DNA from: an uncultured Flavipsychrobacter sp. | GTDB taxonomy: Bacteria; Bacteroidota; Bacteroidia; Chitinophagales; Chitinophagaceae | Assembly (NCBI GenBank): GCA_964621795.1 | Contig: CAZUMM010000002.1 | Coordinates: 176,773-200,772 of the forward strand | DNA: 24,000 bases | Direction: 5' to 3' | Part shown: one piece after another, positions 1 to 23,629 of the stretch | Layout: every line of letters starts with the position of its first letter | Position numbering within the stretch: position 1 is the first letter of the stretch | Position numbers and translations under genes: made by a program | Notes under the pieces: model-generated | The model's input: only the letters and a program-made list of their open reading frames with translations | The model's database searches: none | Told to the model about the DNA's origin: nothing

Positions 1-130
1 TAACCGTATGTGTGATTTTTCTCAGGAAGGGTATGGAATATTTCTTTCCATAATGACGGGCAATTATTCCAAGACAAGCCGGGCCGCAGTCCATTGCATT
101 ATGCTGTATCAGCTTTGGGAATCCTTTCAT
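1..130 (-). CDS. Peptidase C39 domain-containing ABC transporter (double-glycine leader-cleaving RiPP/bacteriocin exporter), N-terminal fragment; continues beyond the left edge
   Basis: The reverse complement of 1-130 translates to MKGFPKLIQHNAMDCGPACLGIIARHYGKKYSIPFLRKITHTV. This is the textbook N-terminus of the C39 papain-like peptidase domain, with the catalytic Cys in the DCGPxCL motif. The ATG at 130 overlaps the SPASM gene 3' end by 32 nt. The ORF is absent from the supplied track because it is truncated by the window edge. Confidence 0.8.
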   Translation of the reverse strand, partial: MKGFPKLIQHNAMDCGPACLGIIARHYGKKYSIPFLRKITHTV

Positions 131-1205
131 GGTGATTTTCTGTAAATGCTTTATAATATTGTATTGCCTTTTGCTTCAATGGGTTTGAAGCCCAGTCGTC
201 CCATTCGCAGTTTTCGGGGTTGTACCCGCACTTTAGCGGTTGGCTGTAATCGTCGTCGGGATTGGAAAGGTAAGCCCTGCAATCAGTGCAGATATACCTG
301 AATTCGCAATCCCGGCAGTTGTTTATTTCATCTTTATTAATATCCCAGTATTTACGAAAGTCCGGAGTCGATACTACATCAGCGAGCGAAATGTTAGCAA
401 TGTTTCCAAAGCTCTGTTGCATAGAAGGGCAATTTTTTATATTACCATATTTATCAAGCGATACCTTTTTATTGAGGCAGCTATTGTGTTTTAAAGACTC
501 CGTATAATGATAAATATTGGTAGTGAAATATTTGTCGTTAACTAATCCGCAGGCGAACTCATTATCTAAACTCTTGGTAAAAAAAACAATCTTGGTAATT
601 AACCCGTCTATCACATCAGTAACAGACTGGTATGGCGCACTATGAATATATATTGACTGGATGCGACTATCTTTTGCTGCAAGCGCATGAAGCCCGGTTT
701 CTGTCCATACGGCATATTTCAGGATAAACTCAATAGACCGTATTTGTGAATGACGCATAGCAGCAAGCATAAGGTATAAGCTTTCAACGTCAACATCGTC
801 GTATGCTTTTACTTGTATAGCCTGGCAGCCTAGTTTATCAAGCTGATTGATAAATTTGATACAAGGATGAATGTCCGTGTGTTTATCAATGTCAATAATG
901 GCGTTAGATATAATACCTGGAAAATAATAGTCTAATGGCATAGGAGGAAACCTGTCTGTATCGTCAGGATGCATAAAGAATATCAAATCGTTTTCCAGCA
1001 AAAAATGAATGTATTCGTTTATGATTTCTTCAGCACCGGTGTAGGTGCTATAAATATCTTCCAGCTTGCATCCGTCAAAACGTTGCAGGATATCATACAA
1101 AGTATTTGGTATCAGGAAGTACCGGTCTCGAGTTAAATCCATTATCAATGCCCTCGCTTTTCCTTTTACAGGAATGCAATTAGCGTATAGTTTTATCAAA
1201 TTCAT
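99..1205 (-). CDS. SPASM-domain peptide maturase ('grasp-with-SPASM' type), lacking the radical-SAM CX3CX2C cluster motif
   Basis: 368-aa ORF. The C-terminal region carries C243-X10-G-X4-C259, C297-X2-C300-X5-C306-X2-C309 and C326, which is the SPASM twin auxiliary 4Fe-4S signature. The only N-terminal Cys are C10, C46, C115 and C127, and no CxxxCxxC occurs anywhere. The gene is co-operonic with an ATP-grasp gene and a GG-leader precursor. Confidence 0.85.
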   Translation of the reverse strand: MNLIKLYANCIPVKGKARALIMDLTRDRYFLIPNTLYDILQRFDGCKLEDIYSTYTGAEEIINEYIHFLLENDLIFFMHPDDTDRFPPMPLDYYFPGIISNAIIDIDKHTDIHPCIKFINQLDKLGCQAIQVKAYDDVDVESLYLMLAAMRHSQIRSIEFILKYAVWTETGLHALAAKDSRIQSIYIHSAPYQSVTDVIDGLITKIVFFTKSLDNEFACGLVNDKYFTTNIYHYTESLKHNSCLNKKVSLDKYGNIKNCPSMQQSFGNIANISLADVVSTPDFRKYWDINKDEINNCRDCEFRYICTDCRAYLSNPDDDYSQPLKCGYNPENCEWDDWASNPLKQKAIQYYKAFTENHHERIPKADTA

Positions 1206-1211
1206 GGTGCA

Positions 1212-1406
1212 TTACAGGTTTATGCTCCGGGAAATATGCTTATAAAATTCAATTGCATTTGCCGTTCGCGTATTAAATATTGCTACAGGAAAAGTTTTTG
1301 GCTTTTTGAAGTCGCCGGACGAATCTTTAATAGCATGGATTTTCCAGACTCTTGCTGTAAGCGGCAAATATTTCAGGATATCTTCAGGCAGCCGGTTGTT
1401 TTTCAT
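1212..1406 (-). CDS. Small hypothetical protein (64 aa) nested between the ATP-grasp and SPASM genes; possible accessory or recognition subunit
   Basis: The ATG at 1406 overlaps the ATP-grasp 3' end (stop at 1384-1386) by 23 nt. Its stop lies 6 nt upstream of the SPASM ATG (1205). This is a translational-coupling geometry. I recognise no domain, so the call rests on operon context only. Confidence 0.5.
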   Translation of the reverse strand: MKNNRLPEDILKYLPLTARVWKIHAIKDSSGDFKKPKTFPVAIFNTRTANAIEFYKHISRSINL

Positions 1407-2391
1407 GAGATAAGTGTGTTGCTAATAGTTTTTCAAGATAATAGTTGCAAGGTTTGGATACCTGTTCAAATTGGCCAATGGGGTTGATTTCAAAAAATAC
1501 TTCTTTCCCCGATGGAGTGACGGCCATATCAATAGACCCGCTATTCATCTTAAGCTTTCGCATAAGCCTGTCCAGTTTTAATGTTGTCTGCGGGGAAAGT
1601 TGGTAAGGTACTACGCGGTTGGGCACCTCATGATTATATCGCCTGAAATCAACCTTTGTTTTTTCATCCTGTTGGGAAAAGATGGCTGATGCATAAAAAT
1701 TTCCGTCTAAATAGAATATTCTCAGTTCATAACGTTTGTCTATGTACTCCTGGAATAATGTGGGTATAAAGCGGTCCGGAATTTCATGGAATATGTTTTC
1801 ATGAAAAATATGCGTCATGCAATCAAAAAATACCTTTTCATCTACATGCCCAAAAGCATTATGCACTGCCTTGCTGATGATTGTTTTATGTTTATGCATG
1901 AAATGCTGCAATGCCGTTCTTTCAGAAGTGATAATAGTGTCAGGTATGTCTATCCCTTCCTCCTGCGCCAGGTATATATTTTCCAGTTTATTGGTGTCAT
2001 TGTCATTAAAGCTGTTGACGTGTGACAGGGTAGATAAAAGTTTATGTAATGATTGTGTCGTATAGCTAGCTTCATTTTTTATATAAGTGTTCAGGCGGGA
2101 AAATAATTTATTGCCTTCTTCAAACACGTTGCGGAATGCATTATTGTTGCCAAATACAAACATTCCTCTCCTGTACCAGTAAATAGTATGGTGATTGATA
2201 GCAACAACCTTGTCAATAAATTCGTTCTTTATGCGAAACATGAAATTGAATCCTTCTGCCCCGATAGCATAGGTCTGAAACTCCAGTATGTCAGAATCGT
2301 TTATTCGTATAAAATCTACCTGTTCATGCAGCAGCCAGCTTATTATCTGGTTGGTACTGTGGTCGTTTTCAGTAGATAATATGATTACCAT
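1384..2391 (-). CDS. ATP-grasp ribosomal peptide maturase (graspetide / omega-ester peptide ligase family, 'grasp-with-SPASM' type)
   Basis: 335 aa. The N-terminus MVIILSTENDHSTNQIISWL is typical of RiPP ATP-grasp maturases. The C-terminal ATP-grasp fold motifs are ELRIFYLDGNFYASAIFSQ..DFRRYN and SIDMAVTPSGKEVFFEINPIGQF. The start overlaps the upstream gene stop (ATGGTAA). Confidence 0.85.
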   Translation of the reverse strand: MVIILSTENDHSTNQIISWLLHEQVDFIRINDSDILEFQTYAIGAEGFNFMFRIKNEFIDKVVAINHHTIYWYRRGMFVFGNNNAFRNVFEEGNKLFSRLNTYIKNEASYTTQSLHKLLSTLSHVNSFNDNDTNKLENIYLAQEEGIDIPDTIITSERTALQHFMHKHKTIISKAVHNAFGHVDEKVFFDCMTHIFHENIFHEIPDRFIPTLFQEYIDKRYELRIFYLDGNFYASAIFSQQDEKTKVDFRRYNHEVPNRVVPYQLSPQTTLKLDRLMRKLKMNSGSIDMAVTPSGKEVFFEINPIGQFEQVSKPCNYYLEKLLATHLSHEKQPAA

Positions 2392-3317
2392 ATTACTGTG
2401 TTTTTGTCGTATTTCGCAGGCAGGGGTACGCCATAAATTTCCGCATCAATATATAGCGGGTACATATACAGGTGCTCTCTTCTTTTATCAACCATTGATA
2501 TGGAGTCAATTTCCAGGTAATTTGGGCCGTTATATATAGTGCCGTATAGTGAATGCTTATTTTTATTCAACTGCATCTTGTCCATAAAATTCGCCAGGAA
2601 ATAATTCGATATGTTACCGTTATTCATTTGTTTGTCTAACTCGTTAAGCAATAGCTCTCTGTCAAAATAGGTGTACAGGTGGGTAAGCATGAAGTAAAAC
2701 TTTTCTGTATTGGCAAAACCAATATTGTTGATGCCCGGGAAAGGAAGTTCTTTTGTGACGATTATCTTTTTTAATATCGCAACATTGGCAGTATCGGCTT
2801 GTCCGATGATTTTGCAGGAATAGATATTGTCTTTATTAAAGAGCTCGCAAAAATTACGGGCTGCCTGGTCAAGCGAAAACATGGTATTGATAGTATTAAC
2901 CATTTTTTCATCCATGTCTTTTTGCTGCAGGTTATTCAACGAGTCGTACTGTGCCAGTAAACTGGTATATTCCGGGTCGGCCTGGTTGATATATCTTCTA
3001 AAGTTGAAAGCCATATTGCCCGGTTCTGAAAATATACCGCTTGCAATAGCCTTTCTCAGCCACTTATAGCCTTCCTGTTTTTCATTATTACGAAAGTGTA
3101 TTTTGGCTACAGTGCTGTATATCGTTGCCTGTAATTTGCCCTTATATTGTAAAGCCCTTTTGGCATACATCATGGCTGAATCGTACTGCTGCTTATGCAT
3201 ATAATACTCCATGTGATTGGAGTTGTTATAAAAAGAAGCAATGTCGGATGTATTGCTTTGCGCAAAACAACGAAATGAAAAGGTAATGGCAGTAATAAGA
3301 AAAAGAATGCGCTTCAT
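2385..3317 (-). CDS. Exported protein of unknown function (signal peptide; TPR-like N-terminal helices; uncharacterised C-terminal domain)
   Basis: 310 aa. MKRILFLITAITFSFRCFAQ is a Sec signal with the Bacteroidota-style AQ end. The helical-repeat-like segment is YYMHKQQYDSAMMYAKRALQY..EGYKWLRKAIASG. The C-terminal half resembles an uncharacterised Bacteroidota domain family (possibly DUF6624-like, from unverified memory). The stop overlaps the ATP-grasp start. Confidence 0.75.
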   Translation of the reverse strand: MKRILFLITAITFSFRCFAQSNTSDIASFYNNSNHMEYYMHKQQYDSAMMYAKRALQYKGKLQATIYSTVAKIHFRNNEKQEGYKWLRKAIASGIFSEPGNMAFNFRRYINQADPEYTSLLAQYDSLNNLQQKDMDEKMVNTINTMFSLDQAARNFCELFNKDNIYSCKIIGQADTANVAILKKIIVTKELPFPGINNIGFANTEKFYFMLTHLYTYFDRELLLNELDKQMNNGNISNYFLANFMDKMQLNKNKHSLYGTIYNGPNYLEIDSISMVDKRREHLYMYPLYIDAEIYGVPLPAKYDKNTVIW

Positions 3318-3332
3318 TGTATATATAGATTA

Positions 3333-3372
3333 GTGAAAAAGGCGTCTTCCCGTACTAACCACGGGAAGACGC
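3333..3372 (-). terminator. Rho-independent terminator/attenuator immediately downstream of the precursor gene
   Basis: A perfect 12-bp stem (3342-3353 gcgtcttcccgt / 3361-3372 acgggaagacgc) has a 7-nt loop. On the minus strand it is followed by CTTTTTCAC. It sits between the precursor stop (3386) and the next gene start (3317). Confidence 0.65.
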
Positions 3373-3385
3373 TTTGTGACTGATG

Positions 3386-3700
3386 TTATCCTTGCCAATC
3401 CCAGATTGGTGCGCTGGGAGGATTAGCCGGATCAATAACACACCAGCAAGTTCCCAGTTCAGGATCACCCGGATCGATTGGATGTGGTGGAGTGCCTGCC
3501 ATCATCTGCGTACAGGTATTAAAATCGGAGGGGTTGGCATGTCCATTGTCATACGTGGAGCACGTATCGTATGTGTCGGTTGTATTTTCAATTTCGTTTA
3601 CTGATTTAATACAGCCGCCTCCGCGTATCTGTAGCGGATTGTCAATTTGATGAGATTTAAAACCATCAAATTTGGAAGATTTTAGACTTTCAAGTTTCAT
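3386..3700 (-). CDS. RiPP precursor peptide: Bacteroidota double-glycine leader plus 75-aa acidic Thr/Ser/Cys/Pro-rich core (candidate graspetide substrate)
   Basis: The leader MKLESLKSSKFDGFKSHQIDNPLQIRGGG (29 aa) matches the MKLxxLK...I(K/R)GG leader class processed by C39 exporters. The core is CIKSVNEIENTTDTYDTCSTYDNGHANPSDFNTCTQMMAGTPPHPIDPGDPELGTCWCVIDPANPPSAPIWDWQG, with 5 Cys, 13 Ser/Thr, 11 Asp/Glu and 10 Pro. It is the first gene of the maturase operon. Confidence 0.8.
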   Translation of the reverse strand: MKLESLKSSKFDGFKSHQIDNPLQIRGGGCIKSVNEIENTTDTYDTCSTYDNGHANPSDFNTCTQMMAGTPPHPIDPGDPELGTCWCVIDPANPPSAPIWDWQG

Positions 3701-3709
3701 AGCATTTTA

Positions 3710-3726
3710 CCCGTTTAAGAAACGGG
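3710..3726 (-). promoter_or_regulatory. 7-bp stem-loop in the 5' leader of the precursor gene
   Basis: cccgttt-aag-aaacggg is a perfect 7-bp stem about 10 nt upstream of the precursor ATG (3700). Its function is unknown. Confidence 0.3.
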
Positions 3727-3859
3727 ACAAAAATTTAGGTTGATAATAGCTTACTCTTTTATACAGGTTTTCAGTTCCCCTGGGTTTATGTCAGGATAAA
3801 CCAGCCTTGAAATGCATTTCATATCAAATGTAATTAAGGCTACTGCCATTAAATGTCAG

Positions 3860-4108
3860 TTATAACAATTTCATTTCATCAACACGGATGTTCATTTCTA
3901 TTTTCACTTTTTTTGAGTAGTAGTAAGATTGTTTATTACGGCAGTAGCAGATGGGAAAGCCGGTGTCTTTTAAGTCTTCAATCAAGCGGTAAACCTGCCG
4001 TTCAGACAGCCCCAGTCTATCTGAAAGTTGTACCGGTGTGCCTGTTGAGGAGGTTCTGATAAGATAATCAAGGCGGATTAAAACGTGAATTGCTTTGAAT
4101 AGGCTCAT
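3860..4108 (-). CDS. Small HTH DNA-binding protein (HTH_11/DeoR-N-like), putative cluster regulator
   Basis: 82 aa. The winged-helix HTH segment is TGTPVQLSDRLGLSERQVYRLIEDLKDTGFPI. It lies directly upstream of, and co-oriented with, the precursor gene. Confidence 0.75.
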   Translation of the reverse strand: MSLFKAIHVLIRLDYLIRTSSTGTPVQLSDRLGLSERQVYRLIEDLKDTGFPICYCRNKQSYYYSKKVKIEMNIRVDEMKLL

Positions 4109-4123
4109 GGTGCTGATATTAGG

Positions 4124-4170
4124 TTTTACATGGAAATTATTTCTAATTAAGTAAATTTTACATGAAAAAT
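4124..4170. promoter_or_regulatory. Direct repeat pair TTTTACATG(G/A)AAA upstream of the HTH regulator gene; candidate operator
   Basis: ttttacatggaaatt (4124-4138) and ttttacatgaaaaat (4156-4170) are 32 bp apart (about three helical turns). They sit in the AT-rich divergent intergenic region between the regulator (start 4108, minus) and the TonB receptor (start 4268, plus). Confidence 0.3.
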
Positions 4171-4267
4171 CAAGTAAAAAATTAACTTTTTTGTAATTGT
4201 AAAAAGTTTAATGTGTATAGAGGTCATTCTTAATAATTAAGTATGTTTATAATGGAATTTCTTTGAA

Positions 4268-6688
4268 ATGCGTTCAATACTGCTTTTTATTATATACTTC
4301 TTTTTGCCAGCAGTTTTACGGGCACAATACACCCAGCGCATACGCGGCACTGTGACTGACAAAGAATCGCACTACCCGTTAACAGGTGTTACCGTTGCTG
4401 TGACGGATGTGGCCGGGGCTGCGGGTACGGCTACCGATGAGAACGGCACCTTTGTGATAGCGGGTATTCCCGTAGGTAAACATACCATACAGGTTTCGTA
4501 TACAGGATATGAAACAGTTACTATGGGCAATGTACTGGTGACGAGCGGTAAAGAGGTGCTGTTACAAATAGAACTGGAAGAGCTAGCCCGGAAAATGGGC
4601 GAAGTGGTGGTGAGCGCGAAAAAAGAGCACATCAACGAGATGGCAGTTGTCAGTGCCAAAACCTTTGACGTGCAGGAAACGGAACGCTATGCAGGCAGCC
4701 GCTCCGACCCTGCGCGTATGGCCTCCAACTTTGCGGGTGTGCAGGGTGCCGATGATTCGCGCAATGATATTATCATCCGCGGCAATTCGCCTTCAGGGTT
4801 GTTGTGGCGGCTTGAAGATATTGATATACCGAACCCCAACCACTTTGCCATACCCGGCACCAGCGGCGGCCCTGTAAGTATGCTAAACAATAAGGTGCTG
4901 GGCAATAGCGATTTCTTTACCGGGGCGTTCCCTGCCGAGTATGGCAACTCTATAGCGGGCGCTTTCGATTTGAAGATGCGTAACGGCAATAACCAGCGGC
5001 ACGAGTACAGCGCACAGATTGGCTTCCTGGGCACAGAACTGGCAGGGGAGGGGCCGATATCGAAGAAAAACGGTTCGTCTTACCTGTTTACTTACCGTTA
5101 CTCCACGCTTAAGCTGTTTGAAAGTTTTAATTTCAAAATAGGCACCAATTCGGTACCGAACTACCAGGATGCGTCATTCAGGCTGAATTTCCCTTTTGGC
5201 AAAAAAGCCAATTTATCGTTTTTCGGCATCGGCGGGTTGAGCCATATAGATTTAATTGTGAGCAACCAGGCCGAACCGCCTACGGAACTATACGGCGAAT
5301 CAGATCGCGACCAGTATTTCACTTCCAACACGGGCGTGGTGGGAGCTTCGTTCAGCTATACCATCAACCCCAATACTTATACAAAACTCACCGTGGGGCA
5401 AACGGGTAACAACATCAATGCCCGCCATGATAAGGTGTTTCGTAATGCAGCTTACGAGGTAGACTCGCTGAAAAGCATACTGGACTATACCACCATTACC
5501 AACAGCACGGTAGCGCATTGGTACATCAATAAAAAAATATCGGCAAGGCAAACGGTGAAAGCGGGCATCATCAACAACCTGTACGAGCTGGATATGACAG
5601 ATAGCAGCCGCCAATACCCGCCTACCAAACAGATTTGGGACCACCGGCAGGATTTCAAAGGAACTACTGACCTGCTGCAGGCTTATGTACAATACAAATA
5701 CCGCCCTACCGATGCACTGACCATCACCGCGGGGCTGCACAGCCAGTACCTGACGCATAACGGCAGTACTGCCATTGAGCCACGTGCGGCTATGCGCTAC
5801 CGGCTGAGTAGTGCCGATGCTGTTAGTCTTGGCTATGGACTGCACAGCCAGATACAACCGCTGTACCAGTACTTTACTCACCTGCCGCAAAACCCGTCAA
5901 CGGCTTTGCACAATTATGATATGGGCTTTACCCGCAGCCACCATATAGTGGCAGGGTACGAGCATTTGTTTAAAGGGGTGCGCCTGCGCAGCGAAGCATA
6001 CTATCAATACCTGTTCAATGTGCCGATAGAAACACGGGCAGGCTCATCTTTCTCGCTACTGAATCAGGGCAGCAATTTCAGCCGCCTCTTCCCCGATACA
6101 TTGGTGAACAAGGGGACGGGTTATAATTATGGATTGGAACTGACGATAGAAAAGCCGTTCAGTCATGGGTATTATGTGTTGTTCACAGCTTCGGTGTTCA
6201 ACTCGAAAGCGAAGGGTAATGATGGGGTGTACCGCAATACGGATTATAACGGGCAGTTTGCTACCAACCTGCTGGCAGGCTATGAATACAAGACAGGTAA
6301 AAACACAACGCTGATATCGGGGCTGAAAATCACTTATGCGGGTGGCAAACTTTACTCCCCGCCCGATGTGGCTGCCTCGGAAGCATTGGGTGACTTTGTA
6401 GTAATTGATTCGCTGCGCAATACGTTGCGCTTTCCTGATTACTTCCGCGCCGATGTGAAGCTGGGCATCCGCATCAACCGCCCTAAAGTGACACACGAGA
6501 TAGCCCTCGACCTGGTAAATGTCTTCGGTATCAAAAACCTGCTCTCACTCACCTACAACCCCGACCTTGCAGCACAGGGTGTGGCCTATCCTTTCAACAA
6601 AAACTACCAACTGGGATTTTTGCCGCTATTTTATTACAGGGTGGATTTTGGAATTAATAGTCGAAAGTCAAAAGTCGAAAGTCGTTAG
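4268..6688 (+). CDS. TonB-dependent receptor with N-terminal carboxypeptidase-regulatory-like domain
   Basis: 806 aa. The signal peptide is MRSILLFIIYFFLPAVLRAQ. The CarboxypepD_reg-like segment is RIRGTVTDKESHYPLTGVTVAV..TDENGTFVIAGIPVGKHTIQVSYTGYE. The plug-like segment is RGNSPSGLLWRLEDIDIPNPNHF, followed by a long beta-barrel ending ..LFYYRVDF plus a 12-aa tail. Confidence 0.9.
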   Translation: MRSILLFIIYFFLPAVLRAQYTQRIRGTVTDKESHYPLTGVTVAVTDVAGAAGTATDENGTFVIAGIPVGKHTIQVSYTGYETVTMGNVLVTSGKEVLLQIELEELARKMGEVVVSAKKEHINEMAVVSAKTFDVQETERYAGSRSDPARMASNFAGVQGADDSRNDIIIRGNSPSGLLWRLEDIDIPNPNHFAIPGTSGGPVSMLNNKVLGNSDFFTGAFPAEYGNSIAGAFDLKMRNGNNQRHEYSAQIGFLGTELAGEGPISKKNGSSYLFTYRYSTLKLFESFNFKIGTNSVPNYQDASFRLNFPFGKKANLSFFGIGGLSHIDLIVSNQAEPPTELYGESDRDQYFTSNTGVVGASFSYTINPNTYTKLTVGQTGNNINARHDKVFRNAAYEVDSLKSILDYTTITNSTVAHWYINKKISARQTVKAGIINNLYELDMTDSSRQYPPTKQIWDHRQDFKGTTDLLQAYVQYKYRPTDALTITAGLHSQYLTHNGSTAIEPRAAMRYRLSSADAVSLGYGLHSQIQPLYQYFTHLPQNPSTALHNYDMGFTRSHHIVAGYEHLFKGVRLRSEAYYQYLFNVPIETRAGSSFSLLNQGSNFSRLFPDTLVNKGTGYNYGLELTIEKPFSHGYYVLFTASVFNSKAKGNDGVYRNTDYNGQFATNLLAGYEYKTGKNTTLISGLKITYAGGKLYSPPDVAASEALGDFVVIDSLRNTLRFPDYFRADVKLGIRINRPKVTHEIALDLVNVFGIKNLLSLTYNPDLAAQGVAYPFNKNYQLGFLPLFYYRVDFGINSRKSKVESR
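6659..6684 (+). repeat. Heptanucleotide tandem repeat (agtcgaa / agtcaaa / agtcgaa / agtcg) at the 3' end of the receptor gene
   Basis: Read directly from the sequence. It encodes most of the SRKSKVESR tail that follows the barrel-terminal ..RVDF. Confidence 0.6.
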
Positions 6689-6770
6689 TTAATAATCAAC
6701 TGGAAACTTCGTTCGAGAACAAAAGTACCTAAGTGTCAATCCTATGCTATATTTACATAAATAAAAAAAT

Positions 6771-8090
6771 ATGAAAATAGCCTTCCTAAACCTATCCATA
6801 GTACTTATATGCGGTATCAATGCGTTTGCGCAACAATCTCAAGTACCCGGCAATAGTACTGAACCCGGAAAGACCACGGCACTCGCATCACGATTAGTAG
6901 GTCACAGTATTTATGGCAACTATATTCTTCCAATACCCGGATGGGGATTATTGGACTCCACGCATTTTACCTATTCTCCCTATCATGGATATGACACAGC
7001 GGTAGGCGAATGGGAGTTTGATACAGATTCAGTAGTTGGCTATGTGGGGACACCTAGCTTTAAAGTAATAGCCCGCCAAACGCAAACCTTTGCATCTAAC
7101 AATCACATCGCCATGCAATTTCACGAGTCAGCTGACGGAGCCGGAAACTGGAGCAGTGATGAGTGGCACCGGTATACATGGAATACAGACAGCACAATGG
7201 CTGTGCATGAGTATGCAAAACATATTTCAGGTTGGGATTCTGTAAGGTTGACCTATACTTACAATACCTCCGGAAAGGCAATACTCGAATACAAGGAAGT
7301 GAAAGGAGTTAATTCGTGGAGGAATGCAGCAAAAACATTTACTACCTATAATATAGATGGCACGCAGGCGGGCACGGTACAATTAATTTGGGATGTATCT
7401 ACGTCATCCTGGGATTCGACACGCCGTGTTATCAATACCTATAATGGAGCAGGCCTATTGACTAAAAAGCTGTTCCAGTCGTATTCCGTCAATCATTGGG
7501 TAACTGACCAGGATCAGAACTATACTTATGACAGCAAAGGTAATCTTACCCAACACGAAACTCTCGATCTGTTTAATTCTTCTGCATATAAATATAATTA
7601 CACCTATGATGCTAATAATGATCTTATTTGGGAAGATAAATCCTCTTACGGTGGCATCATTAAAAATTATACGAATGAATATCGGAATATATATACTTAC
7701 AACAACTTCCACCAGGTACTGACTACGGAATATTGGGCATGGGATCTTGCAACTGCACAATATAATAAGCTTAATAACATAGATTATTATTACTATGAAT
7801 CTTATGATGACGGAGTAGTGGTAGGAGTAAAAAATATGATTGAACCGGATGTAATCGCTACACTGTTCCCTGTCCCTGCTTCCAATGAATTGCACGTAAA
7901 GCTAAATGGCAGCAGCGAAGCGGATATCATGTTATTTGACCTTCGTGGCAGGCTCGTGAAATACACAACGATTCCCAGTGGCAACACAATACAGCGCATT
8001 GATGTAAGCAATTTATCTGCTGGCACCTATATTTTTAAAGCCCTCATAAATGGCAAAACATCTGTACGCAATATAAGTCTGATAAAATAA
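6771..8090 (+). CDS. T9SS type A sorting domain-containing secreted protein with YD-repeat-like motifs
   Basis: 439 aa. The signal peptide is MKIAFLNLSIVLICGINAFAQ. Repeated YTY(D/N)xxGN-like motifs occur (NYTYDSKGNLTQ, YNYTYDANNDL, LTYTYNTSGKA). The C-terminal T9SS CTD is LFPVPASNELHVKL..MLFDLRGRLV..IDVSNLSAGTYIFKA. Confidence 0.85.
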   Translation: MKIAFLNLSIVLICGINAFAQQSQVPGNSTEPGKTTALASRLVGHSIYGNYILPIPGWGLLDSTHFTYSPYHGYDTAVGEWEFDTDSVVGYVGTPSFKVIARQTQTFASNNHIAMQFHESADGAGNWSSDEWHRYTWNTDSTMAVHEYAKHISGWDSVRLTYTYNTSGKAILEYKEVKGVNSWRNAAKTFTTYNIDGTQAGTVQLIWDVSTSSWDSTRRVINTYNGAGLLTKKLFQSYSVNHWVTDQDQNYTYDSKGNLTQHETLDLFNSSAYKYNYTYDANNDLIWEDKSSYGGIIKNYTNEYRNIYTYNNFHQVLTTEYWAWDLATAQYNKLNNIDYYYYESYDDGVVVGVKNMIEPDVIATLFPVPASNELHVKLNGSSEADIMLFDLRGRLVKYTTIPSGNTIQRIDVSNLSAGTYIFKALINGKTSVRNISLIK

Positions 8091-8212: not shown

Positions 8213-8764
8213 ATGTCGACTAAGTACAAGGTCTATAATCACCACCAGCCTCATTTTATTACCAGTACAGTTGTAGGTTGGGCAGATGTCTTAAGCAGGG
8301 AGGAGTATAAAGAAATAATACTAGATAGCCTGCGGTTTTGCCAGCAAGATAAAGGTTTATTGATACATGCATGGGTTATCATGAATAACCATATACACCT
8401 AATAGTAAGTGCGGAAGGTAATGAAGAACTTCCTGCAATCATCAGGGATTTCAAGAAATTCACCAGCAGGCACCTTATCGCTGCAATTGAAGCTCATCCA
8501 CAGGAAAGCAGGAAAGGTTGGTTGCTCAATATGTTCCGCTTTGTGGGTGGCAACAATAATAAGAATGAAACTTACCAGTTTTGGCAACAGGAATACCACC
8601 CTATAGAACTGGACACTACCGAAAAGTACAACCAACGCTTGCACTACCTGCACGAAAACCCTGTCAAGGCGGGTATTGTATGGAGTCCACCTCAGTATAA
8701 ATATAGCAGTGCTATTGATTATTACGAGCAAAATCAGGGGCTGCTTACCTTGAATATACTTTGA
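8213..8764 (+). CDS. REP-associated tyrosine transposase (RAYT) / IS200-like Y1 HUH transposase
   Basis: 183 aa. The HUH motif lies in VIMNNHIHLIVS, and the C-terminal Tyr region is SPPQYKYSSAIDYY, as in RAYT/Y1_Tnp proteins. The gene is flanked by inverted hairpin-containing repeats rather than classical IS ends. Confidence 0.85.
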   Translation: MSTKYKVYNHHQPHFITSTVVGWADVLSREEYKEIILDSLRFCQQDKGLLIHAWVIMNNHIHLIVSAEGNEELPAIIRDFKKFTSRHLIAAIEAHPQESRKGWLLNMFRFVGGNNNKNETYQFWQQEYHPIELDTTEKYNQRLHYLHENPVKAGIVWSPPQYKYSSAIDYYEQNQGLLTLNIL

Positions 8765-20280: not shown

Positions 20281-22257
20281 ATGAGACAGATCATGCAACA
20301 GGAAACCACTGTAAAAATTATACCCTTGCCCGACGATGCCAATTTATTAATGTCTGCCGGCGGCAGGCCGTTCCTGATGAAACTGCCTGTAGCCGTGTTC
20401 GTAATTAGCGGGCCTTCCTTTTCAATAGAGCTGGCCAACGAACGTGCGCAGTCCCTTTTGGGAAAACATGCGCGGGAGTTGGTAAATAAGTCTTTTAGAG
20501 ACTTATTACCGACAGAAGAGCAGCAGAGTATAGGGGATATACTACTGTACGTATTTGCTTCAGGTCGCGAGGCTGCCTGTAATGACGTACCGGTGTATGT
20601 ATCAAAAGAGATACGTTATTTCCATCTTAATTTTCAGCCTGTAAAAAATGACAAAGACCTGGTAGAAAGTGTCATGATAGTGGCTGTAGATGTAACGGCC
20701 AATAAACGGGAAAAGGAAGAGCTGGCCCGTCATGCACAACGCTACCGTTCACTGATAGAGGCGGGCAAATCGGTAATTTGGGTAACCGATGCCATGGGGG
20801 CTTATATCACACCGCAGCACTCCTGGGAAGCCTATACGGGGCAACCCTTTGAACAACATAAAGGTTTTGGCTGGATTGAGATGATACATCCGGACGACAG
20901 GGAGCGCATCGGCAGGCAGTGGCAGGTATCGCTGGAGCATAAATCGGTACACAACTGCTGGGGACAAATGTGGTCGAAAGCGCATAACGGCTACCGGCAC
21001 TTCACGGCAAGGGCGGTGCCTATACTGGACGAAGAAGGGAATGTAAAAGAGTGGATAGGGATGGATATTGACATCCACGACCAGAAGATGGCAGAAATGG
21101 CCCTGGTTAAAAGCGAACAGACTTTCCGCGAACTGGCCGATGCCATACCGCAAATGATATGGACCATCACGCCCGGCGGCATTATCAGTTACGGTAATAA
21201 AAAATGGACGGAATACCAGGGGCCGGATACTATCAATACCCCGCTGGTTTGGGAAGATATATTGTATGCAGGAGATGCGGTAAAGGTAAAGGAACTGTGG
21301 GATACGATGATACCTGCAGGGCAGGGTTTTACGGCTGAATGCCGCTTTCTGCACCCCGGGGGCGAAGCCTGCTGGCACCTGTTGCGTATTGCCCCTGTTA
21401 AAAGCCCTTCGGGTGATATTACAGCATGGCTGGGCGCAGCTACAGATATACACCGGCAAAAAACCTTTGCCGAAGAACTGGAGCGTAAAGTGCAGGACCG
21501 TACCCGCTCCCTCCAGGAAGTAAACCGGAAGCTGGAAGACAGCAACCATGAGCTGGAACAGTTTGCATACATAGCCAGCCACGACCTGCAGGAGCCGCTA
21601 CGGAAAATAAAAGCCTTTGGCGATATACTGAAGGGCAGGTACCATGACCTGCTTGGCGACAACGGCGCCGATATGATCGACCGTATGCAATCGGCATCAT
21701 ACCGGATGAAAGTATTTATCGACAACCTGCTGACTTATTCAAGAGTATCGGCCAATGCAAAGCCACACGAGCCTGTAAACCTGAATGAACTGCTGCGTGA
21801 AGTGACTTTTGACCTGGAAACATTGATAACAGAAAAGAAGGGCAGGGTTGAAGTGTCTGAACTGCCTGTAGTAACAGGCGACAGGCTGCAACTGGGGCAA
21901 TTGTTCCAGAACCTGTTGAGCAATGCCATCAAATTCAATAAACCGGGTGAGCCGCCTCGGGTTGTTATCACAGGTAAAGTAGTGAGGGGCAATGAATGTG
22001 CCGTTATTTTCCCGCCACAGGATGCTTCAAAACAATTTCTCTATATAGAAGTGCAGGATAACGGTATTGGTTTTGAGCCGGAGTATGCCGAAAAGATATT
22101 CCAGATATTTCAGCGCCTGCACAGCCGTAGCGAATATGAGGGGACCGGTATCGGCCTTTCTATCGTGAAAAAGGTAATAGAGAATCATAAAGGCTATATC
22201 ACTGCCGAAAGCGTATACGGGCAAGGTGCCTTATTCAGGATATTGCTGCCCTTATAA
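20281..22257 (+). CDS. Multi-PAS sensor histidine kinase (PAS x3, HisKA, HATPase_c)
   Basis: The H-box is FAYIASHDLQEPLRKI, the N-box LFQNLLSNAIKFN, the G-boxes VQDNGIGFEPEY and GTGIGLSIVKKV. PAS-like blocks occur upstream (e.g. WIEMIHPDDRERI). I prefer the ATG at 20281 (MRQIMQQ) over the GTG at 20266. Confidence 0.9.
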   Translation: MRQIMQQETTVKIIPLPDDANLLMSAGGRPFLMKLPVAVFVISGPSFSIELANERAQSLLGKHARELVNKSFRDLLPTEEQQSIGDILLYVFASGREAACNDVPVYVSKEIRYFHLNFQPVKNDKDLVESVMIVAVDVTANKREKEELARHAQRYRSLIEAGKSVIWVTDAMGAYITPQHSWEAYTGQPFEQHKGFGWIEMIHPDDRERIGRQWQVSLEHKSVHNCWGQMWSKAHNGYRHFTARAVPILDEEGNVKEWIGMDIDIHDQKMAEMALVKSEQTFRELADAIPQMIWTITPGGIISYGNKKWTEYQGPDTINTPLVWEDILYAGDAVKVKELWDTMIPAGQGFTAECRFLHPGGEACWHLLRIAPVKSPSGDITAWLGAATDIHRQKTFAEELERKVQDRTRSLQEVNRKLEDSNHELEQFAYIASHDLQEPLRKIKAFGDILKGRYHDLLGDNGADMIDRMQSASYRMKVFIDNLLTYSRVSANAKPHEPVNLNELLREVTFDLETLITEKKGRVEVSELPVVTGDRLQLGQLFQNLLSNAIKFNKPGEPPRVVITGKVVRGNECAVIFPPQDASKQFLYIEVQDNGIGFEPEYAEKIFQIFQRLHSRSEYEGTGIGLSIVKKVIENHKGYITAESVYGQGALFRILLPL

Positions 22258-22870: not shown

Positions 22871-23629
22871 TTACCTGTTCAGCCAGTGCTTGAAATCGCT
22901 GACACGCTGGCGGCTTACGAAGATGTCATTATCGTCGCAGTGTTTCAGTTCTATCTTCAGCCTGCCGTTGAAGTGGGTATGTATGCGGCCTATGGACTGT
23001 ATATGGGCTATATAGCTGCGGTTGATACGAAAGAATACCTGCGGGTCCAGTATTTTCTCCAGTTCGTCCAGCGTTTCATCTATGATGTATTTCTGTTGCT
23101 GCATGGTGTGCAGGAAGATGACCTTGTCATCGGCACGCATATAGGCCACATCGGCTACGGGTACATAGCTCAGCCTGTCGCCCTGCTTTACCAGGAAGCG
23201 CGACTTATGCGATGTGCCGCCTTGTTGCAGTTGTTGCAGCAGGCGGGAGAAATCGGGGGGGACGTTATCCTGCTGCAGCCCCCGGTATTTATCGAAGGCG
23301 GCTTTCAGCTCTTCTTTGTCTATGGGTTTCAGCAGGTAGTCTATGCTGTTCAGCTTGAAGGCGCGGAGGGTATAAGCATCGTAGGCGGTGGTAAAGATGA
23401 TGGGAATCTTCACCTGCACCTGTTCAAATATCTCGAAACTTAGCCCGTCTGCCAGTTGTATATCCGAGAGGATGATGTCTACTTCGCTACCGGATGTGCT
23501 GAGCCATTGTATGCCTTCCTGCACCGTTTCAATAGTAGACGCAATCTCTGCTCCCGGCATTACTTCAGCCAGTAATTGTTTCAGCCTGCGGGCGGCTGCT
23601 TTTTCATCTTCCAGCAATAGTATCCTCAT
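22871..23629 (-). CDS. LytTR-family two-component response regulator
   Basis: 252 aa. The receiver is MRILLLEDEKAAARRLKQLL..DIILSDIQLADGLSFEI..IIFTTAYD. The C-terminal LytTR DNA-binding domain is FLVKQGDRLSYVPVADVAYMRADDKVIFLHT..FFRINRSYIAHIQSI. Confidence 0.9.
   Translation of the reverse strand: MRILLLEDEKAAARRLKQLLAEVMPGAEIASTIETVQEGIQWLSTSGSEVDIILSDIQLADGLSFEIFEQVQVKIPIIFTTAYDAYTLRAFKLNSIDYLLKPIDKEELKAAFDKYRGLQQDNVPPDFSRLLQQLQQGGTSHKSRFLVKQGDRLSYVPVADVAYMRADDKVIFLHTMQQQKYIIDETLDELEKILDPQVFFRINRSYIAHIQSIGRIHTHFNGRLKIELKHCDDNDIFVSRQRVSDFKHWLNR

What the first reader, a model, noticed from the sequence alone, without database searches (positions are those of the whole stretch)
1..4108. Compact 'grasp-with-SPASM' RiPP operon: GG-leader precursor, ATP-grasp ligase, radical-SAM-less SPASM protein and C39 exporter, with no characterised product class
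Seven co-oriented minus-strand genes form what looks like a self-contained peptide natural-product system. They are an HTH regulator (3860-4108), a precursor (3386-3700), an exported unknown protein (2385-3317), an ATP-grasp (1384-2391), a 64-aa ORF (1212-1406), a SPASM protein (99-1205) and a C39-ABC exporter (130 to beyond the edge). Four junctions are overlapping or nearly abutting: ATGGTAA at 2385/2391, a 23-nt overlap at 1384/1406, a 6-nt gap at 1205/1212 and a 32-nt overlap at 99/130. This is seen directly in the sequence and argues for stoichiometric co-translation. Established knowledge: RiPP ATP-grasp ligases make side-chain ester or amide macrocycles (graspetides such as microviridins and plesiocin). 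SPASM domains normally accompany radical-SAM peptide crosslinkers. C39 exporters cleave after GG. The ATP-grasp plus SPASM pairing was named by comparative genomics ('grasp-with-spasm system' protein families). As far as I know no product structure, SPASM chemistry or biological activity has been reported, so this is a candidate new hybrid RiPP class.
Basis: partly seen in the sequence, partly recalled or inferred. Interest (0 to 1): 0.9.

Follow-up and report, generated by a model that had tools for sequence, protein, structure and literature searches.

The report
Known grasp-with-SPASM peptide gene cluster
This is an intact, typical copy of a widespread Bacteroidota gene cluster that makes a cross-linked ribosomal peptide with an ATP-grasp ligase and an iron-sulfur 'SPASM' protein lacking its radical-SAM half. 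The cluster type is already catalogued, but its product and the SPASM protein's job are still unknown.

Summary
The ATP-grasp and SPASM proteins pass the curated equivalog models TIGR04192 (273 vs 230 bits) and TIGR04193 (334 vs 175 bits). This is therefore a bona fide grasp-with-SPASM (GwsG/GwsS) graspetide cluster.

The two 'unknowns' are also family components. The 64-aa ORF is an 'LPL-family' protein (39.7 bits vs at most 8.9 for shuffles). The 310-aa exported protein is a divergent DUF6624/'cluster 23' protein. The GwsG-LPL-GwsS core recurs in 72-76 of 80 sampled loci (57 also carry the DUF6624-like gene), out of at least 578 species genomes. Makarova 2022 (branch 5) and Carter 2026 (group 14) already described it. 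I found no product or SPASM chemistry in the literature.

Added here:
- 0 of 120 GwsS homologues have a radical-SAM Cys triad.
- GwsS still keeps eight invariant SPASM cysteines and a CteB/SuiB-like fold, and is the most conserved cassette protein.
- 12 of 59 loci have only Cys-free cores, so its conserved role is unlikely to be Cys cross-linking.
- A terminator-like hairpin separates the precursor from the maturase block.

Verdict: a correct identification of a catalogued, biochemically unsolved system. It is a new member, not a new class.

The parts
1..130 (-). 5' end of the peptidase-containing ABC exporter (PCAT). It starts at 130 and runs off the left edge of the window. The catalytic Cys lies in the motif 'NAMDCGPACL'.
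   Evidence: Translation. Pfam Peptidase_C39 scores 3.7e-8 on 43 aa and 8.3e-33 on the 185 aa recovered from contig L001. NCBIfam NHLM/bacteriocin ABC N-terminus scores 3e-25. The full-length homologue in L017 is C39 + ABC_membrane + ABC_tran, 735 aa.
99..1205 (-). GwsS, the grasp-with-SPASM system SPASM-domain protein. It has an RRE-like N-domain (about residues 1-78), a shortened beta/alpha barrel without a radical-SAM cluster (about 99-210), and a SPASM domain with 8 invariant Cys (219-340).
   Evidence: TIGR04193 scores 333.9 bits against a cutoff of 175. Invariant Cys are C219, C243, C259, C297, C300, C306, C309 and C326. 0 of 120 homologues have CxxxCxxC and 0 of 25 hit Pfam Radical_SAM. 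The AF2 model has pLDDT 89. The best PDB folds are CteB, SuiB and anSME.
1212..1406 (-). 'LPL-family' small protein (64 aa) with an N-terminal 'YLPLTARVWKI' motif and a C-terminal 'EFYKHISRS' motif (family consensus FYKPISKI). It overlaps the ATP-grasp 3' end by 23 nt.
   Evidence: It scores 39.7 bits (E 3e-14) against a profile of slot ORFs from 67 loci, while the best of 500 shuffles scores 8.9 bits. An ORF occupies this slot in 72 of 74 loci. The family was described by Makarova et al. 2022. The exact sequence is absent from the 15-billion-protein collection, so it was never called as a gene.
1384..2391 (-). GwsG, the grasp-with-SPASM system ATP-grasp peptide maturase (graspetide synthetase).
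   Evidence: TIGR04192 scores 273 bits against a cutoff of 230, aligned end to end. It is related to the MvdC/MvdD models but far below their cutoffs. It lies directly upstream of GwsS in 76 of 80 loci.
2385..3317 (-). Exported all-helical accessory protein: signal peptide 'MKRILFLITAITFSFRCFA|Q', weak TPR region at residues 42-92, and a divergent DUF6624-like domain with the conserved D150-Q151, H213 and R280. It corresponds to Makarova's 'cluster 23'.
   Evidence: An iterative profile finds the family in 57 of 80 loci, nearly always abutting the ATP-grasp start. A leave-one-out profile scores 77.4 bits (E 6e-26) against 7.3 for the best shuffle. 8 of 25 members hit Pfam DUF6624, best 3e-19.
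3342..3372 (-). Terminator-like (attenuator) hairpin between the precursor stop and the maturase block: GCGTCTTCCCGTG-GTTAG-TACGGGAAGACGC followed by CTTTTTCACT.
   Evidence: Found by the scan. The MFE of the 90 nt downstream of the precursor is -24.7 kcal/mol. Family-wide, regions downstream of precursors fold more stably than controls (-18.4 vs -12.6, p = 2e-10), and terminator-like sites occur in 31 of 78 vs 7 of 154.
3386..3700 (-). Precursor peptide (104 aa). The leader is M1-G28, 'MKLESLKSSKFDGFKSHQIDNPLQIRGG' (nt 3617-3700). The core is about 75 aa, rich in Thr/Ser (13) and Asp/Glu (11), with 5 Cys and a Pro-rich C-terminal half.
   Evidence: ORF. The leader profile scores 41.1 bits (E 3e-12), and it is the only such ORF in the window. 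Homologous leaders occur on 78 precursors in 59 loci.
3705..3731 (-). Small hairpin (CCCGTTT-ctt-AAACGGG core) ending 4 nt upstream of the precursor ATG. It is a possible translational or stability element.
   Evidence: Inverted repeat I2; sequence. Its function was not tested.
3825..3832 (-). Candidate Bacteroidetes-type -7 promoter box, TACATTTG (consensus TAnnTTTG), between the HTH stop and the precursor.
   Evidence: It is the only TAnnTTTG match on the minus strand of 3300-4300. This is a consensus match only. The TAnnTTTG consensus is established knowledge for Bacteroidetes sigma-A promoters.
3860..4108 (-). Small HTH_11-type DNA-binding protein, the putative cluster regulator.
   Evidence: Pfam HTH_11 scores 1.5e-5, 25.3 bits against a cutoff of 25. 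Homologues lie next to the precursor or exporter in 14 of 80 loci, all Saprospiraceae/Chitinophagales or unclassified Bacteroidota MAGs.
4124..4166 (-). Two direct copies of T[CT]CATGTAAAA, 32 nt apart, 16-58 nt upstream of the HTH start codon. They are a candidate operator.
   Evidence: Direct repeat D1. These are the only two exact matches in the 24-kb window. Function is inferred only.

Best explanation
The locus is a complete member of the grasp-with-SPASM (GwsG/GwsS) graspetide gene-cluster family of Bacteroidota, also known as Makarova 'branch 5' and Mitchell-lab 'group 14'. I put this identity at about 0.95.

Proposed working, marking what is shown and what is inferred:
1. The precursor is transcribed from its own promoter, possibly under the adjacent HTH protein. 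A hairpin after it attenuates read-through, so precursor mRNA exceeds maturase mRNA. The hairpin is shown; its effect is inferred.
2. Five tightly packed genes are expressed together: the DUF6624-like protein, GwsG, LPL, GwsS and the exporter. The packing is shown.
3. GwsG uses ATP to join Thr/Ser hydroxyls (or Lys amines) to Asp/Glu carboxylates in the core, making omega-ester or omega-amide macrocycles. This is inferred from family membership and from the T/S + D/E-rich cores.
4. GwsS cannot do radical-SAM chemistry, because the SAM-cluster cysteines are absent family-wide (shown). My preferred reading, at about 0.45, is that it is an Fe-S-containing, leader-binding partner subunit of GwsG. 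In this reading its RRE-like N-domain recognises the conserved GG leader, which is of the type used by Bacteroidetes rSAM/SPASM systems, and the LPL protein acts as a two-motif adaptor or trans-acting leader element bridging GwsG and GwsS.
5. The C39-ABC exporter, with a HlyD partner expected just beyond the window, cleaves after Gly27-Gly28 and exports the product.
6. The exported DUF6624-like protein acts outside the cytoplasm, in processing or self-protection. This role is unknown.
For: Identity: TIGR04192 scores 273 against a cutoff of 230 and TIGR04193 scores 333.9 against 175. The cassette order is conserved in 72-76 of 80 loci. LPL and DUF6624-like membership are shown by profiles with shuffle controls. 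The leader is conserved on 78 precursors in 59 loci, and 77 of 78 cores have at least 2 T/S and at least 2 D/E. The C39 domain scores 8e-33. HlyD follows the ABC gene in 5 of 6 tested loci with the same layout. Published descriptions match.

GwsS is not a radical-SAM enzyme: 0 of 120 homologues have CxxxCxxC or any looser N-terminal Cys triad. 0 of 25 hit Pfam Radical_SAM. The barrel is about 110 aa and is the least conserved region (0.40 vs 0.77 for SPASM).

GwsS is functional, not a relic: it has eight invariant Cys matching two fully ligated auxiliary clusters. It is the most conserved cassette protein, at 46% mean pairwise identity against 34% for GwsG.

Leader-binding partner idea: the N-terminal topology is a beta-sheet plus three helices, and the whole-chain fold matches CteB and SuiB, which carry N-terminal RREs (RRE presence in those two is established knowledge). 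Sister leaders weakly hit TIGR04149, the Bacteroidetes rSAM-target GG leader. Makarova et al. note that branch-5 leaders lack the usual graspetide leader motif while the LPL motif resembles it. Partner-protein-dependent graspetide synthetases now have a precedent in MirB/MirC. 16 of 78 cores, and all detected cores in 12 of 59 loci, lack Cys, so the universal role of GwsS cannot require core cysteines.
Against: No experiment exists for any member. The crosslinks, complex formation and leader binding are all inferred. The RRE assignment rests on predicted topology and low-TM Foldseek matches (TM 0.3-0.4), and no member hits Pfam PqqD. The strongest constraint is on the Fe-S domain rather than the putative leader-binding domain, and Cys is enriched 3.5-fold in cores (3.8% vs 1.1%). 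Both points fit a redox or catalytic role better than a pure scaffold. My precursor detection may have missed Cys-containing peptides in the 'Cys-free' loci. The exporter, the HlyD partner and the source taxon could not be recovered for this contig.
Confidence: 0.6

Rival explanations
1. GwsS is a catalytic, SAM-independent Fe-S enzyme that uses its two SPASM clusters to install a second kind of modification on the graspetide, such as oxidative Cys chemistry (disulfide or thioether) or another 2-electron oxidation.
For: The SPASM domain is the most conserved part of the most conserved protein. All eight cluster ligands are invariant. Further invariant non-Cys residues surround them: W287, K291, E301-F302-R303, D308, R310, K325, Y328, W335 and W338. 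Cys is enriched 3.5-fold in cores, and the window core has 5 Cys. Makarova et al. proposed thioether formation on conserved core cysteines.
Against: I know of no precedent for SPASM-cluster catalysis without the radical-SAM cluster (own knowledge). 16 of 78 cores, and all detected cores in 12 of 59 loci, have no Cys, yet those loci keep GwsS. The barrel that forms the active site in CteB and SuiB is halved and poorly conserved.
Confidence: 0.25
2. The small LPL protein is itself a substrate: a second precursor modified by GwsS at its conserved C-terminal FYKPISK motif. This would be analogous to PqqA/PqqE or MftA/MftC, where a short peptide with a conserved C-terminal motif sits next to a SPASM enzyme.
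For: It is always encoded immediately upstream of GwsS, is 50-80 aa long, and has a variable middle with a highly conserved C-terminal motif that is often at the very C-terminus. Its gene overlaps or abuts both neighbours.
Against: It has no GG cleavage motif, while the cluster's exporter is a GG-specific C39 PCAT. GwsS lacks the radical-SAM machinery that PqqE and MftC use. A second conserved motif (LPL) at the N-terminus suggests a two-site binding protein rather than a leader plus core. Makarova et al. also judged it not to be a precursor.
Confidence: 0.07
3. GwsS is a decaying remnant of a former radical-SAM maturase with no present function, and the cluster is an ordinary graspetide cluster.
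For: The radical-SAM motif is lost and the barrel is shortened.
Against: GwsS is more conserved than the ATP-grasp (46% vs 34%). It has eight invariant Cys across sequences only 40-48% identical. It is present with an intact ORF in at least 578 species and strictly co-occurs with group 14 synthetases.
Confidence: 0.03

Closest known systems
Grasp-with-SPASM system (NCBIfam TIGR04192 GwsG + TIGR04193 GwsS); Makarova et al. 2022 ATP-grasp 'branch 5'; Mitchell-lab graspetide 'group 14'
   Same: Both signature proteins score above the curated cutoffs. The gene order is the same: DUF6624-like/'cluster 23', then ATP-grasp, LPL, SPASM, and C39-ABC (then HlyD). It shares the conserved GG leader, the hypervariable T/S/D/E/G/C-rich core and the Bacteroidota host.
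   Different: Nothing differs in kind. This copy is divergent: at most 48% identity for GwsS, and the accessory protein has no word-level homologue. Its core is unusually long (about 75 aa) and Pro-rich with 5 Cys. It carries the HTH regulator seen in only 14 of 80 loci.
Microviridin / plesiocin-type graspetide clusters (MdnA-MdnC/MvdC/MvdD)
   Same: It has an ATP-grasp peptide ligase of the same superfamily (sub-threshold hits to TIGR04185 and TIGR04184), a T/S + D/E core and a leader-guided RiPP logic.
   Different: It scores far below the MvdC/MvdD cutoffs (120 and 106 bits against 425 and 475). The leader lacks the PFFARFL-type motif. It has obligatory co-occurring SPASM and LPL proteins, and GG-PCAT export.
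RRE-containing radical-SAM/SPASM RiPP maturases CteB (5WGG) and SuiB (5V1S)
   Same: These are the best structural matches to the GwsS model (Foldseek E 1e-6 to 1e-5). They share the N-domain + barrel + SPASM order and the full set of auxiliary-cluster cysteines.
   Different: GwsS has no CxxxCxxC and no Radical_SAM Pfam hit. Its barrel is about half the length. TM-scores are only 0.3-0.4, and there is no detectable sequence similarity to any PDB chain outside SPASM. It cannot work by 5'-deoxyadenosyl radical chemistry.
Partner-protein-dependent graspetide synthetase MirB/MirC (rosaritide; Carter et al. 2026, PMC13097080)
   Same: It is a precedent for a graspetide ATP-grasp that needs a strictly co-occurring, non-ligase partner to be active and stable.
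   Different: The partner there is a PpiC-type chaperone-domain protein in Actinomycetota, not an Fe-S SPASM protein plus a small LPL protein. Dependence has not been tested for Gws.
PqqD/PqqE (peptide chaperone + SPASM enzyme)
   Same: Makarova et al. proposed LPL as a PqqD-like chaperone because a small gene always sits directly upstream of the SPASM gene.
   Different: LPL shows no PqqD similarity. It looks like two short motifs joined by a variable linker. GwsS already has its own RRE-like N-domain.

Membership tests
Grasp-with-SPASM system (GwsG/GwsS) | ATP-grasp protein scoring above the TIGR04192 equivalog cutoff | tested here: met
   273 bits against a cutoff of 230, aligned over residues 2-327 of the protein and 1-318 of 318 in the model.
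Grasp-with-SPASM system (GwsG/GwsS) | SPASM-domain protein scoring above the TIGR04193 equivalog cutoff | tested here: met
   333.9 bits against a cutoff of 175, aligned over residues 5-345 of the protein and 3-342 of 342 in the model.
Grasp-with-SPASM system (GwsG/GwsS) | The two genes are adjacent and co-oriented, with a small 'LPL-family' ORF directly upstream of the SPASM gene | tested here: met
   The arrangement is seen in 76 of 80 and 72 of 74 loci. The window ORF scores 39.7 bits against the LPL profile, compared with at most 8.9 for 500 shuffles.
Grasp-with-SPASM system (GwsG/GwsS) | Secreted 'cluster 23'-type accessory protein with conserved His and Arg | tested here: met
   It has a signal peptide. 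It scores 77.4 bits against a leave-one-out profile. Q151, H213 and R280 are invariant. 8 of 25 members hit DUF6624. The equation with Makarova's cluster 23 rests on their description, not on their sequences.
Grasp-with-SPASM system (GwsG/GwsS) | GG-leader precursor plus C39 peptidase-ABC exporter | tested here: met
   The leader profile scores 41.1 bits. The C39 domain scores 8.3e-33 on the extended contig. The transporter body lies outside the window.
Graspetides (RiPP class) | Side-chain omega-ester or omega-amide macrocycles installed by the ATP-grasp on the core | not testable with these tools
   This needs co-expression and HR-MS/MS. Only the substrate potential is seen: 13 T/S and 11 D/E in the core.
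Microviridin-type ligases (MvdC/MvdD equivalogs) | Score above the TIGR04185 or TIGR04184 cutoffs | tested here: not met
   120.3 bits against 425 and 106.2 bits against 475. It is a related superfamily member, not a member of these families.
Radical SAM/SPASM peptide maturases (CteB/SuiB/anSME type) | CxxxCxxC (or equivalent) triad binding the SAM-cleaving [4Fe-4S] cluster; Pfam Radical_SAM domain | tested here: not met
   0 of 120 homologues have CxxxCxxC or a looser triad. 0 of 25 hit PF04055 at E<=1. The corresponding strand reads 'ITNAIID'.
Radical SAM/SPASM peptide maturases (CteB/SuiB/anSME type) | SPASM domain with the 7-Cys motif plus an upstream Cys (two auxiliary clusters) | tested here: met
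   C219; C243-x15-C259 with G254; C297-x2-C300-x5-C306-x2-C309; C326. All are invariant in 81 sequences. TIGR04085 and PF13186 are above cutoff. Actual cluster binding was not tested.
Radical SAM/SPASM peptide maturases (CteB/SuiB/anSME type) | Overall fold: RRE, then a (beta/alpha)6 partial TIM barrel, then SPASM | tested here: inconclusive
   The top Foldseek hits are CteB, SuiB and anSME (E 1e-6 to 4e-3), but TM is only 0.30-0.41. The barrel has only about 4 beta/alpha units over about 110 residues.
DUF6624 (PF20329) | Score above the Pfam gathering threshold | tested here: not met
   The window protein gives no DUF6624 hit even at E<=10. The link is transitive, through a family profile of which 8 of 25 members hit DUF6624.

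The most novel reading that the evidence does not exclude
GwsS represents an uncharacterised functional class: a SPASM [4Fe-4S] protein that has discarded radical-SAM chemistry yet is the most constrained component of a peptide-maturation machine. It would act either as a SAM-independent redox catalyst installing a second crosslink type, or as an obligate Fe-S, leader-recognising subunit that, with the LPL adaptor, licenses one ATP-grasp to process hypervariable cores.
Probability: 0.25. Interest if true: 0.85.

Novelty: new member of a known kind. Interest (0 to 1): 0.4.

Why it matters
The instance itself is ordinary. It is one divergent copy of a cluster type that curated HMMs already name and that two comparative-genomics papers have dissected. 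The value lies in the class. It is one of the largest graspetide groups, with thousands of protein clusters in at least 578 species, yet it has no known product, activity or biochemical role for three of its four conserved proteins.

The family-wide results here sharpen the question. The SPASM protein is not a radical-SAM enzyme, is not decaying, and cannot depend on core cysteines. If the partner-subunit or SAM-independent-catalyst idea is right, it would explain how one conserved machine handles hypervariable cores. It would also extend what SPASM domains are known to do.

Tried and rejected
1. Recovering the rest of the exporter and the source taxon failed. Exact look-ups returned only short metagenome contigs of 1.2-4.9 kb. 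The 262-kb NCBI contig that carries these proteins could not be fetched.
2. A word-seeded homologue search with the 310-aa protein found only itself. An alignment-seeded search found 11 proteins.
3. The structure of the 310-aa protein was a poor model (pLDDT 53.8, all-helical). Its PDB fold search gave nothing below E = 0.5, so no functional inference was drawn.
4. A profile of 81 GwsS sequences against PDB sequences gave no meaningful hit.
6. I tested whether the DUF6624-like protein is a one-per-peptide immunity protein. Its copy number does not track precursor number (Spearman 0.03, p = 0.85), so this idea has no support.
7. The sigma-70 promoter scan was uninformative: 17 sites found against 15.4 expected.
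8. The literature search with gwsS/gwsG and TIGR accessions returned almost only unrelated acronym hits.
9. I rejected the idea that the small ORF is a chance ORF inside the ATP-grasp/SPASM junction, because of the profile score and the conserved slot.

Full report
OBSERVATION.
- HTH, 3860-4108
- 104-aa peptide, 3386-3700
- 310-aa protein, 2385-3317
- ATP-grasp, 1384-2391
- 64-aa ORF, 1212-1406
- SPASM protein, 99-1205
- an ORF starting at 130 that leaves the window (43 codons)

The four junctions are as described: a 7-nt overlap, a 23-nt overlap, a 6-nt gap and a 32-nt overlap. Only these five downstream genes are tightly packed. The precursor is followed by 68 nt containing a strong terminator-like hairpin (3372-3342; 13-bp stem, 8 G-C pairs, T run). 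The HTH gene lies 159 nt further upstream.

IDENTITY OF THE CORE ENZYMES. The ATP-grasp scores 273 bits on NCBIfam TIGR04192, 'grasp-with-spasm system ATP-grasp peptide maturase' (cutoff 230). The SPASM protein scores 333.9 bits on TIGR04193 (cutoff 175). Both alignments run end to end. Microviridin-type models are hit far below threshold, so this is a sister group rather than a microviridin ligase. The left-edge ORF hits Peptidase_C39 at 3.7e-8. A metagenome contig identical over the SPASM gene extends it to 185 aa, raising the score to 8.3e-33.

THE TWO 'UNKNOWN' GENES ARE FAMILY COMPONENTS. I fetched 80 loci from reference genomes that encode a GwsS relative. They are almost all Bacteroidota, such as Flavobacterium, Chryseobacterium, Tenacibaculum, Saprospiraceae and Chitinophagales.
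- The ATP-grasp lies directly upstream of GwsS in 76 of 80 loci. The other four are mostly truncated contigs.
- A 50-80-aa ORF fills the 130-250-nt slot between them in 72 of 74 loci. These ORFs share an N-terminal LP[LVI] motif and a C-terminal [FY]YKPISK motif.
- The window's 64-aa ORF (YLPLTARVWKI ... EFYKHISRS) scores 39.7 bits against a profile of those ORFs, while the best of 500 shuffles scores 8.9. This is the 'LPL family' of Makarova et al. 2022.
- Its exact sequence is absent from a 15-billion-protein collection, so gene callers missed it.
- The 310-aa protein has no Pfam hit and no word-level homologue. An iterative profile nevertheless finds its family in 57 of 80 loci, nearly always abutting the ATP-grasp start.
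- A leave-one-out profile scores the window protein at 77.4 bits against 7.3 for shuffles.
- The family has invariant Q151, H213 and R280 and near-invariant D150. 8 of 25 members hit Pfam DUF6624.
- With its signal peptide, this matches Makarova's secreted 'cluster 23' with conserved His and Arg. It also matches the DUF6624 that Carter et al. 2026 flag as a recurrent uncharacterised graspetide-associated protein.

PRECURSOR. An iterative leader profile recovers 78 precursors in 59 loci. The leader is clearly conserved. Compare the window's MKLESLKSSKFDGFKSHQIDNPLQIRGG with MKLESLKSSKFEALSKSELNKITGG in Taibaiella and MKLESLKSKKFKKLESHQMTEIKGG in Chryseobacterium. The cores are hypervariable.

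Cores are enriched relative to background in Gly (12% vs 5.9%), Thr (11.2% vs 5.2%), Asp (10.1% vs 5.3%) and Cys (3.8% vs 1.1%). 77 of 78 have at least 2 T/S and at least 2 D/E, the substrate signature of graspetide ligases. The window core is about 75 aa, with 13 T/S, 11 D/E, 5 Cys and a Pro-rich C-terminal half. It is longer than most. It is the only precursor-like ORF in the 24-kb window.

Sister leaders weakly hit TIGR04149, the Bacteroidetes GG leader of rSAM-modified peptides, at 18-21 bits against a cutoff of 25.

WHAT GwsS IS.
- Across 81 aligned homologues only 40-48% identical to the window protein, eight Cys are invariant: C219; C243-x15-C259; C297-x2-C300-x5-C306-x2-C309; C326. This is the SPASM pattern for two fully ligated auxiliary [4Fe-4S] clusters (established knowledge from anSME, CteB and SuiB).
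- None of 120 homologues has CxxxCxxC or any looser Cys triad upstream of the SPASM domain. None of 25 hits Pfam Radical_SAM or PqqD.
- An AlphaFold2 model (pLDDT 89.3) shows four short strands plus three helices (residues 1-78, an RRE/winged-helix-like topology). It then shows a short beta/alpha barrel segment (about 101-208, roughly four units) and the SPASM domain.
- Foldseek against the PDB ranks CteB (5WGG, E 1.3e-6), SuiB and anSME first, though with TM only 0.3-0.4. A sequence profile finds nothing in the PDB.
- Conservation is highest in the SPASM domain (0.77), intermediate in the N-domain (0.56) and lowest in the remnant barrel (0.40).
- On 20 loci with all four proteins, mean pairwise identity is 46% for GwsS, 34% for GwsG, 26% for LPL and 19% for the DUF6624-like protein.

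GwsS is therefore a derived relative of RRE-rSAM-SPASM peptide maturases. It has lost SAM-radical chemistry but is under stronger constraint than the ligase itself.

WHAT GwsS PROBABLY DOES. Makarova et al. suggested thioether formation on core cysteines. Against this as the universal role, 16 of 78 cores, and every detected core in 12 of 59 loci, contain no Cys. The caveat is that I may have missed some precursors.

I favour, at about 0.45, a partner-subunit role. In this model the RRE-like N-domain recognises the conserved leader, which is of the kind used by genuine Bacteroidetes rSAM/SPASM systems. The LPL protein, two short conserved motifs joined by a variable linker, bridges or activates GwsG. 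Three points support this:
- Makarova's remark that branch-5 leaders lack the usual ligase-binding motif while the LPL motif resembles it.
- The new precedent of partner-dependent graspetide synthetases.
- The need to explain how one conserved machine serves hypervariable cores.

The rival, at about 0.25, is a SAM-independent Fe-S catalyst that adds a second modification. It is favoured by the extreme conservation of the Fe-S domain and by the Cys enrichment. LPL as a second substrate (0.07) and GwsS as a relic (0.03) are unlikely.

OPERON ANATOMY.
- The hairpin after the precursor is a family trait. The 90 nt downstream of precursors fold at -18.4 kcal/mol on average, against -12.6 downstream of GwsG or GwsS (p = 2e-10). 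Terminator-like sites occur in 31 of 78 against 7 of 154. This fits the common RiPP design of excess precursor transcript, not stoichiometric co-translation of all seven genes.
- A Bacteroidetes-type -7 box (TACATTTG, 3832-3825) lies between the HTH gene and the precursor.
- A small hairpin ends 4 nt before the precursor ATG.
- Two copies of T[CT]CATGTAAAA sit upstream of the HTH gene.
- HTH homologues accompany 14 of 80 loci.
- In 19 of 23 loci with the same SPASM-then-exporter layout, a roughly 430-aa ORF follows the transporter, and 5 of the 6 I tested are HlyD-family. That is the expected content beyond the window's edge.

COMPARISON WITH WHAT IS KNOWN. The architecture was described for 190 loci as ATP-grasp 'branch 5' (PMC8939145). 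[quoted passage not shown] A 2026 preprint names the genes gwsG and gwsS and finds them on P. gingivalis conjugative elements.

Five full-text searches found no product structure, activity or biochemical study. The library covers open-access papers only, so this absence is not absolute. To my own knowledge none exists either.

VERDICT. It is a new, divergent member of a catalogued cluster type, not a new class. The class remains an open biochemical problem. The family-wide observations here narrow what the SPASM protein can be doing:
- there is no SAM cluster anywhere in the family;
- GwsS is the most conserved cassette protein;
- Cys-free cores exist;
- LPL has a two-motif anatomy;
- a hairpin follows the precursor.

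Noticed in passing
window 15669-16280 (-), with neighbours 15195-15599 (-) and 16307-16873 (-): A 203-aa protein carries a C-terminal RebB 'killing trait' (R-body) domain (Pfam 1.4e-8). The adjacent co-oriented ORFs have no Pfam hit. This may be a small reb-like cluster.
   Followed up: no
window 8213-8764 (+): There is an IS200-like Y1 transposase (Pfam Y1_Tnp, 6.6e-8) about 4 kb from the cluster. The cluster itself has lower GC (0.375-0.396 over 1-4000) than the adjoining 4001-7000 (0.45-0.50). That would fit horizontal acquisition, and gws clusters ride on conjugative elements in P. gingivalis.
   Followed up: partly
window 1212-1406 (-): The 64-aa LPL-family ORF is absent, as an exact sequence, from a 15-billion-protein collection, although its five neighbours in the cluster are present. 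Gene callers appear to skip it because it overlaps the ATP-grasp by 23 nt.
   Followed up: yes
window 99-1205 (-), residues C10 and C127: Two further near-invariant cysteines (at least 90% of 81 sequences) lie outside the SPASM domain, one in the N-domain and one in the barrel.
   Followed up: partly
L040 (Longimicrobiaceae MAG) and L067 (Thermoanaerobaculia MAG): Two non-Bacteroidota loci encode GwsG and GwsS but give no LPL-profile hit, whereas 73 of 80 loci do. In L067 the ATP-grasp ORF runs 154 nt into the SPASM ORF. In L040 a Pro-rich 135-aa ORF fills the slot.
   Followed up: partly
L016, L021, L028, L035, L049, L050, L060: These loci carry a second ATP-grasp homologue within 10 kb, often with its own DUF6624-like gene. 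L050 has a tandem run of near-identical precursors. This indicates cassette duplication.
   Followed up: no
window 4124-4134 and 4156-4166 (-): These are the only two exact copies of T[CT]CATGTAAAA in the 24-kb window. They lie 32 nt apart, just upstream of the HTH start codon, and are a candidate autoregulatory operator.
   Followed up: partly
window 6771-8090 (+), 13688-15076 (+), 17263-18459 (+): Three proteins carry a type IX secretion C-terminal sorting domain (Por_Secre_tail). One also has FG-GAP repeats and one an Omp28 domain. This places the window in Bacteroidota.
   Followed up: no
window 20266-22257 (+) and 22871-23629 (-): A PAS-PAS-HisKA-HATPase sensor kinase lies close to a convergent LytTR-type response regulator. 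LytTR regulators often control peptide or bacteriocin systems, but no link to this cluster was examined.
   Followed up: no
window 3705-3731 (-): A 7-bp G+C-rich hairpin (CCCGTTT/AAACGGG) ends 4 nt before the precursor start codon. It might affect translation initiation or mRNA stability.
   Followed up: no
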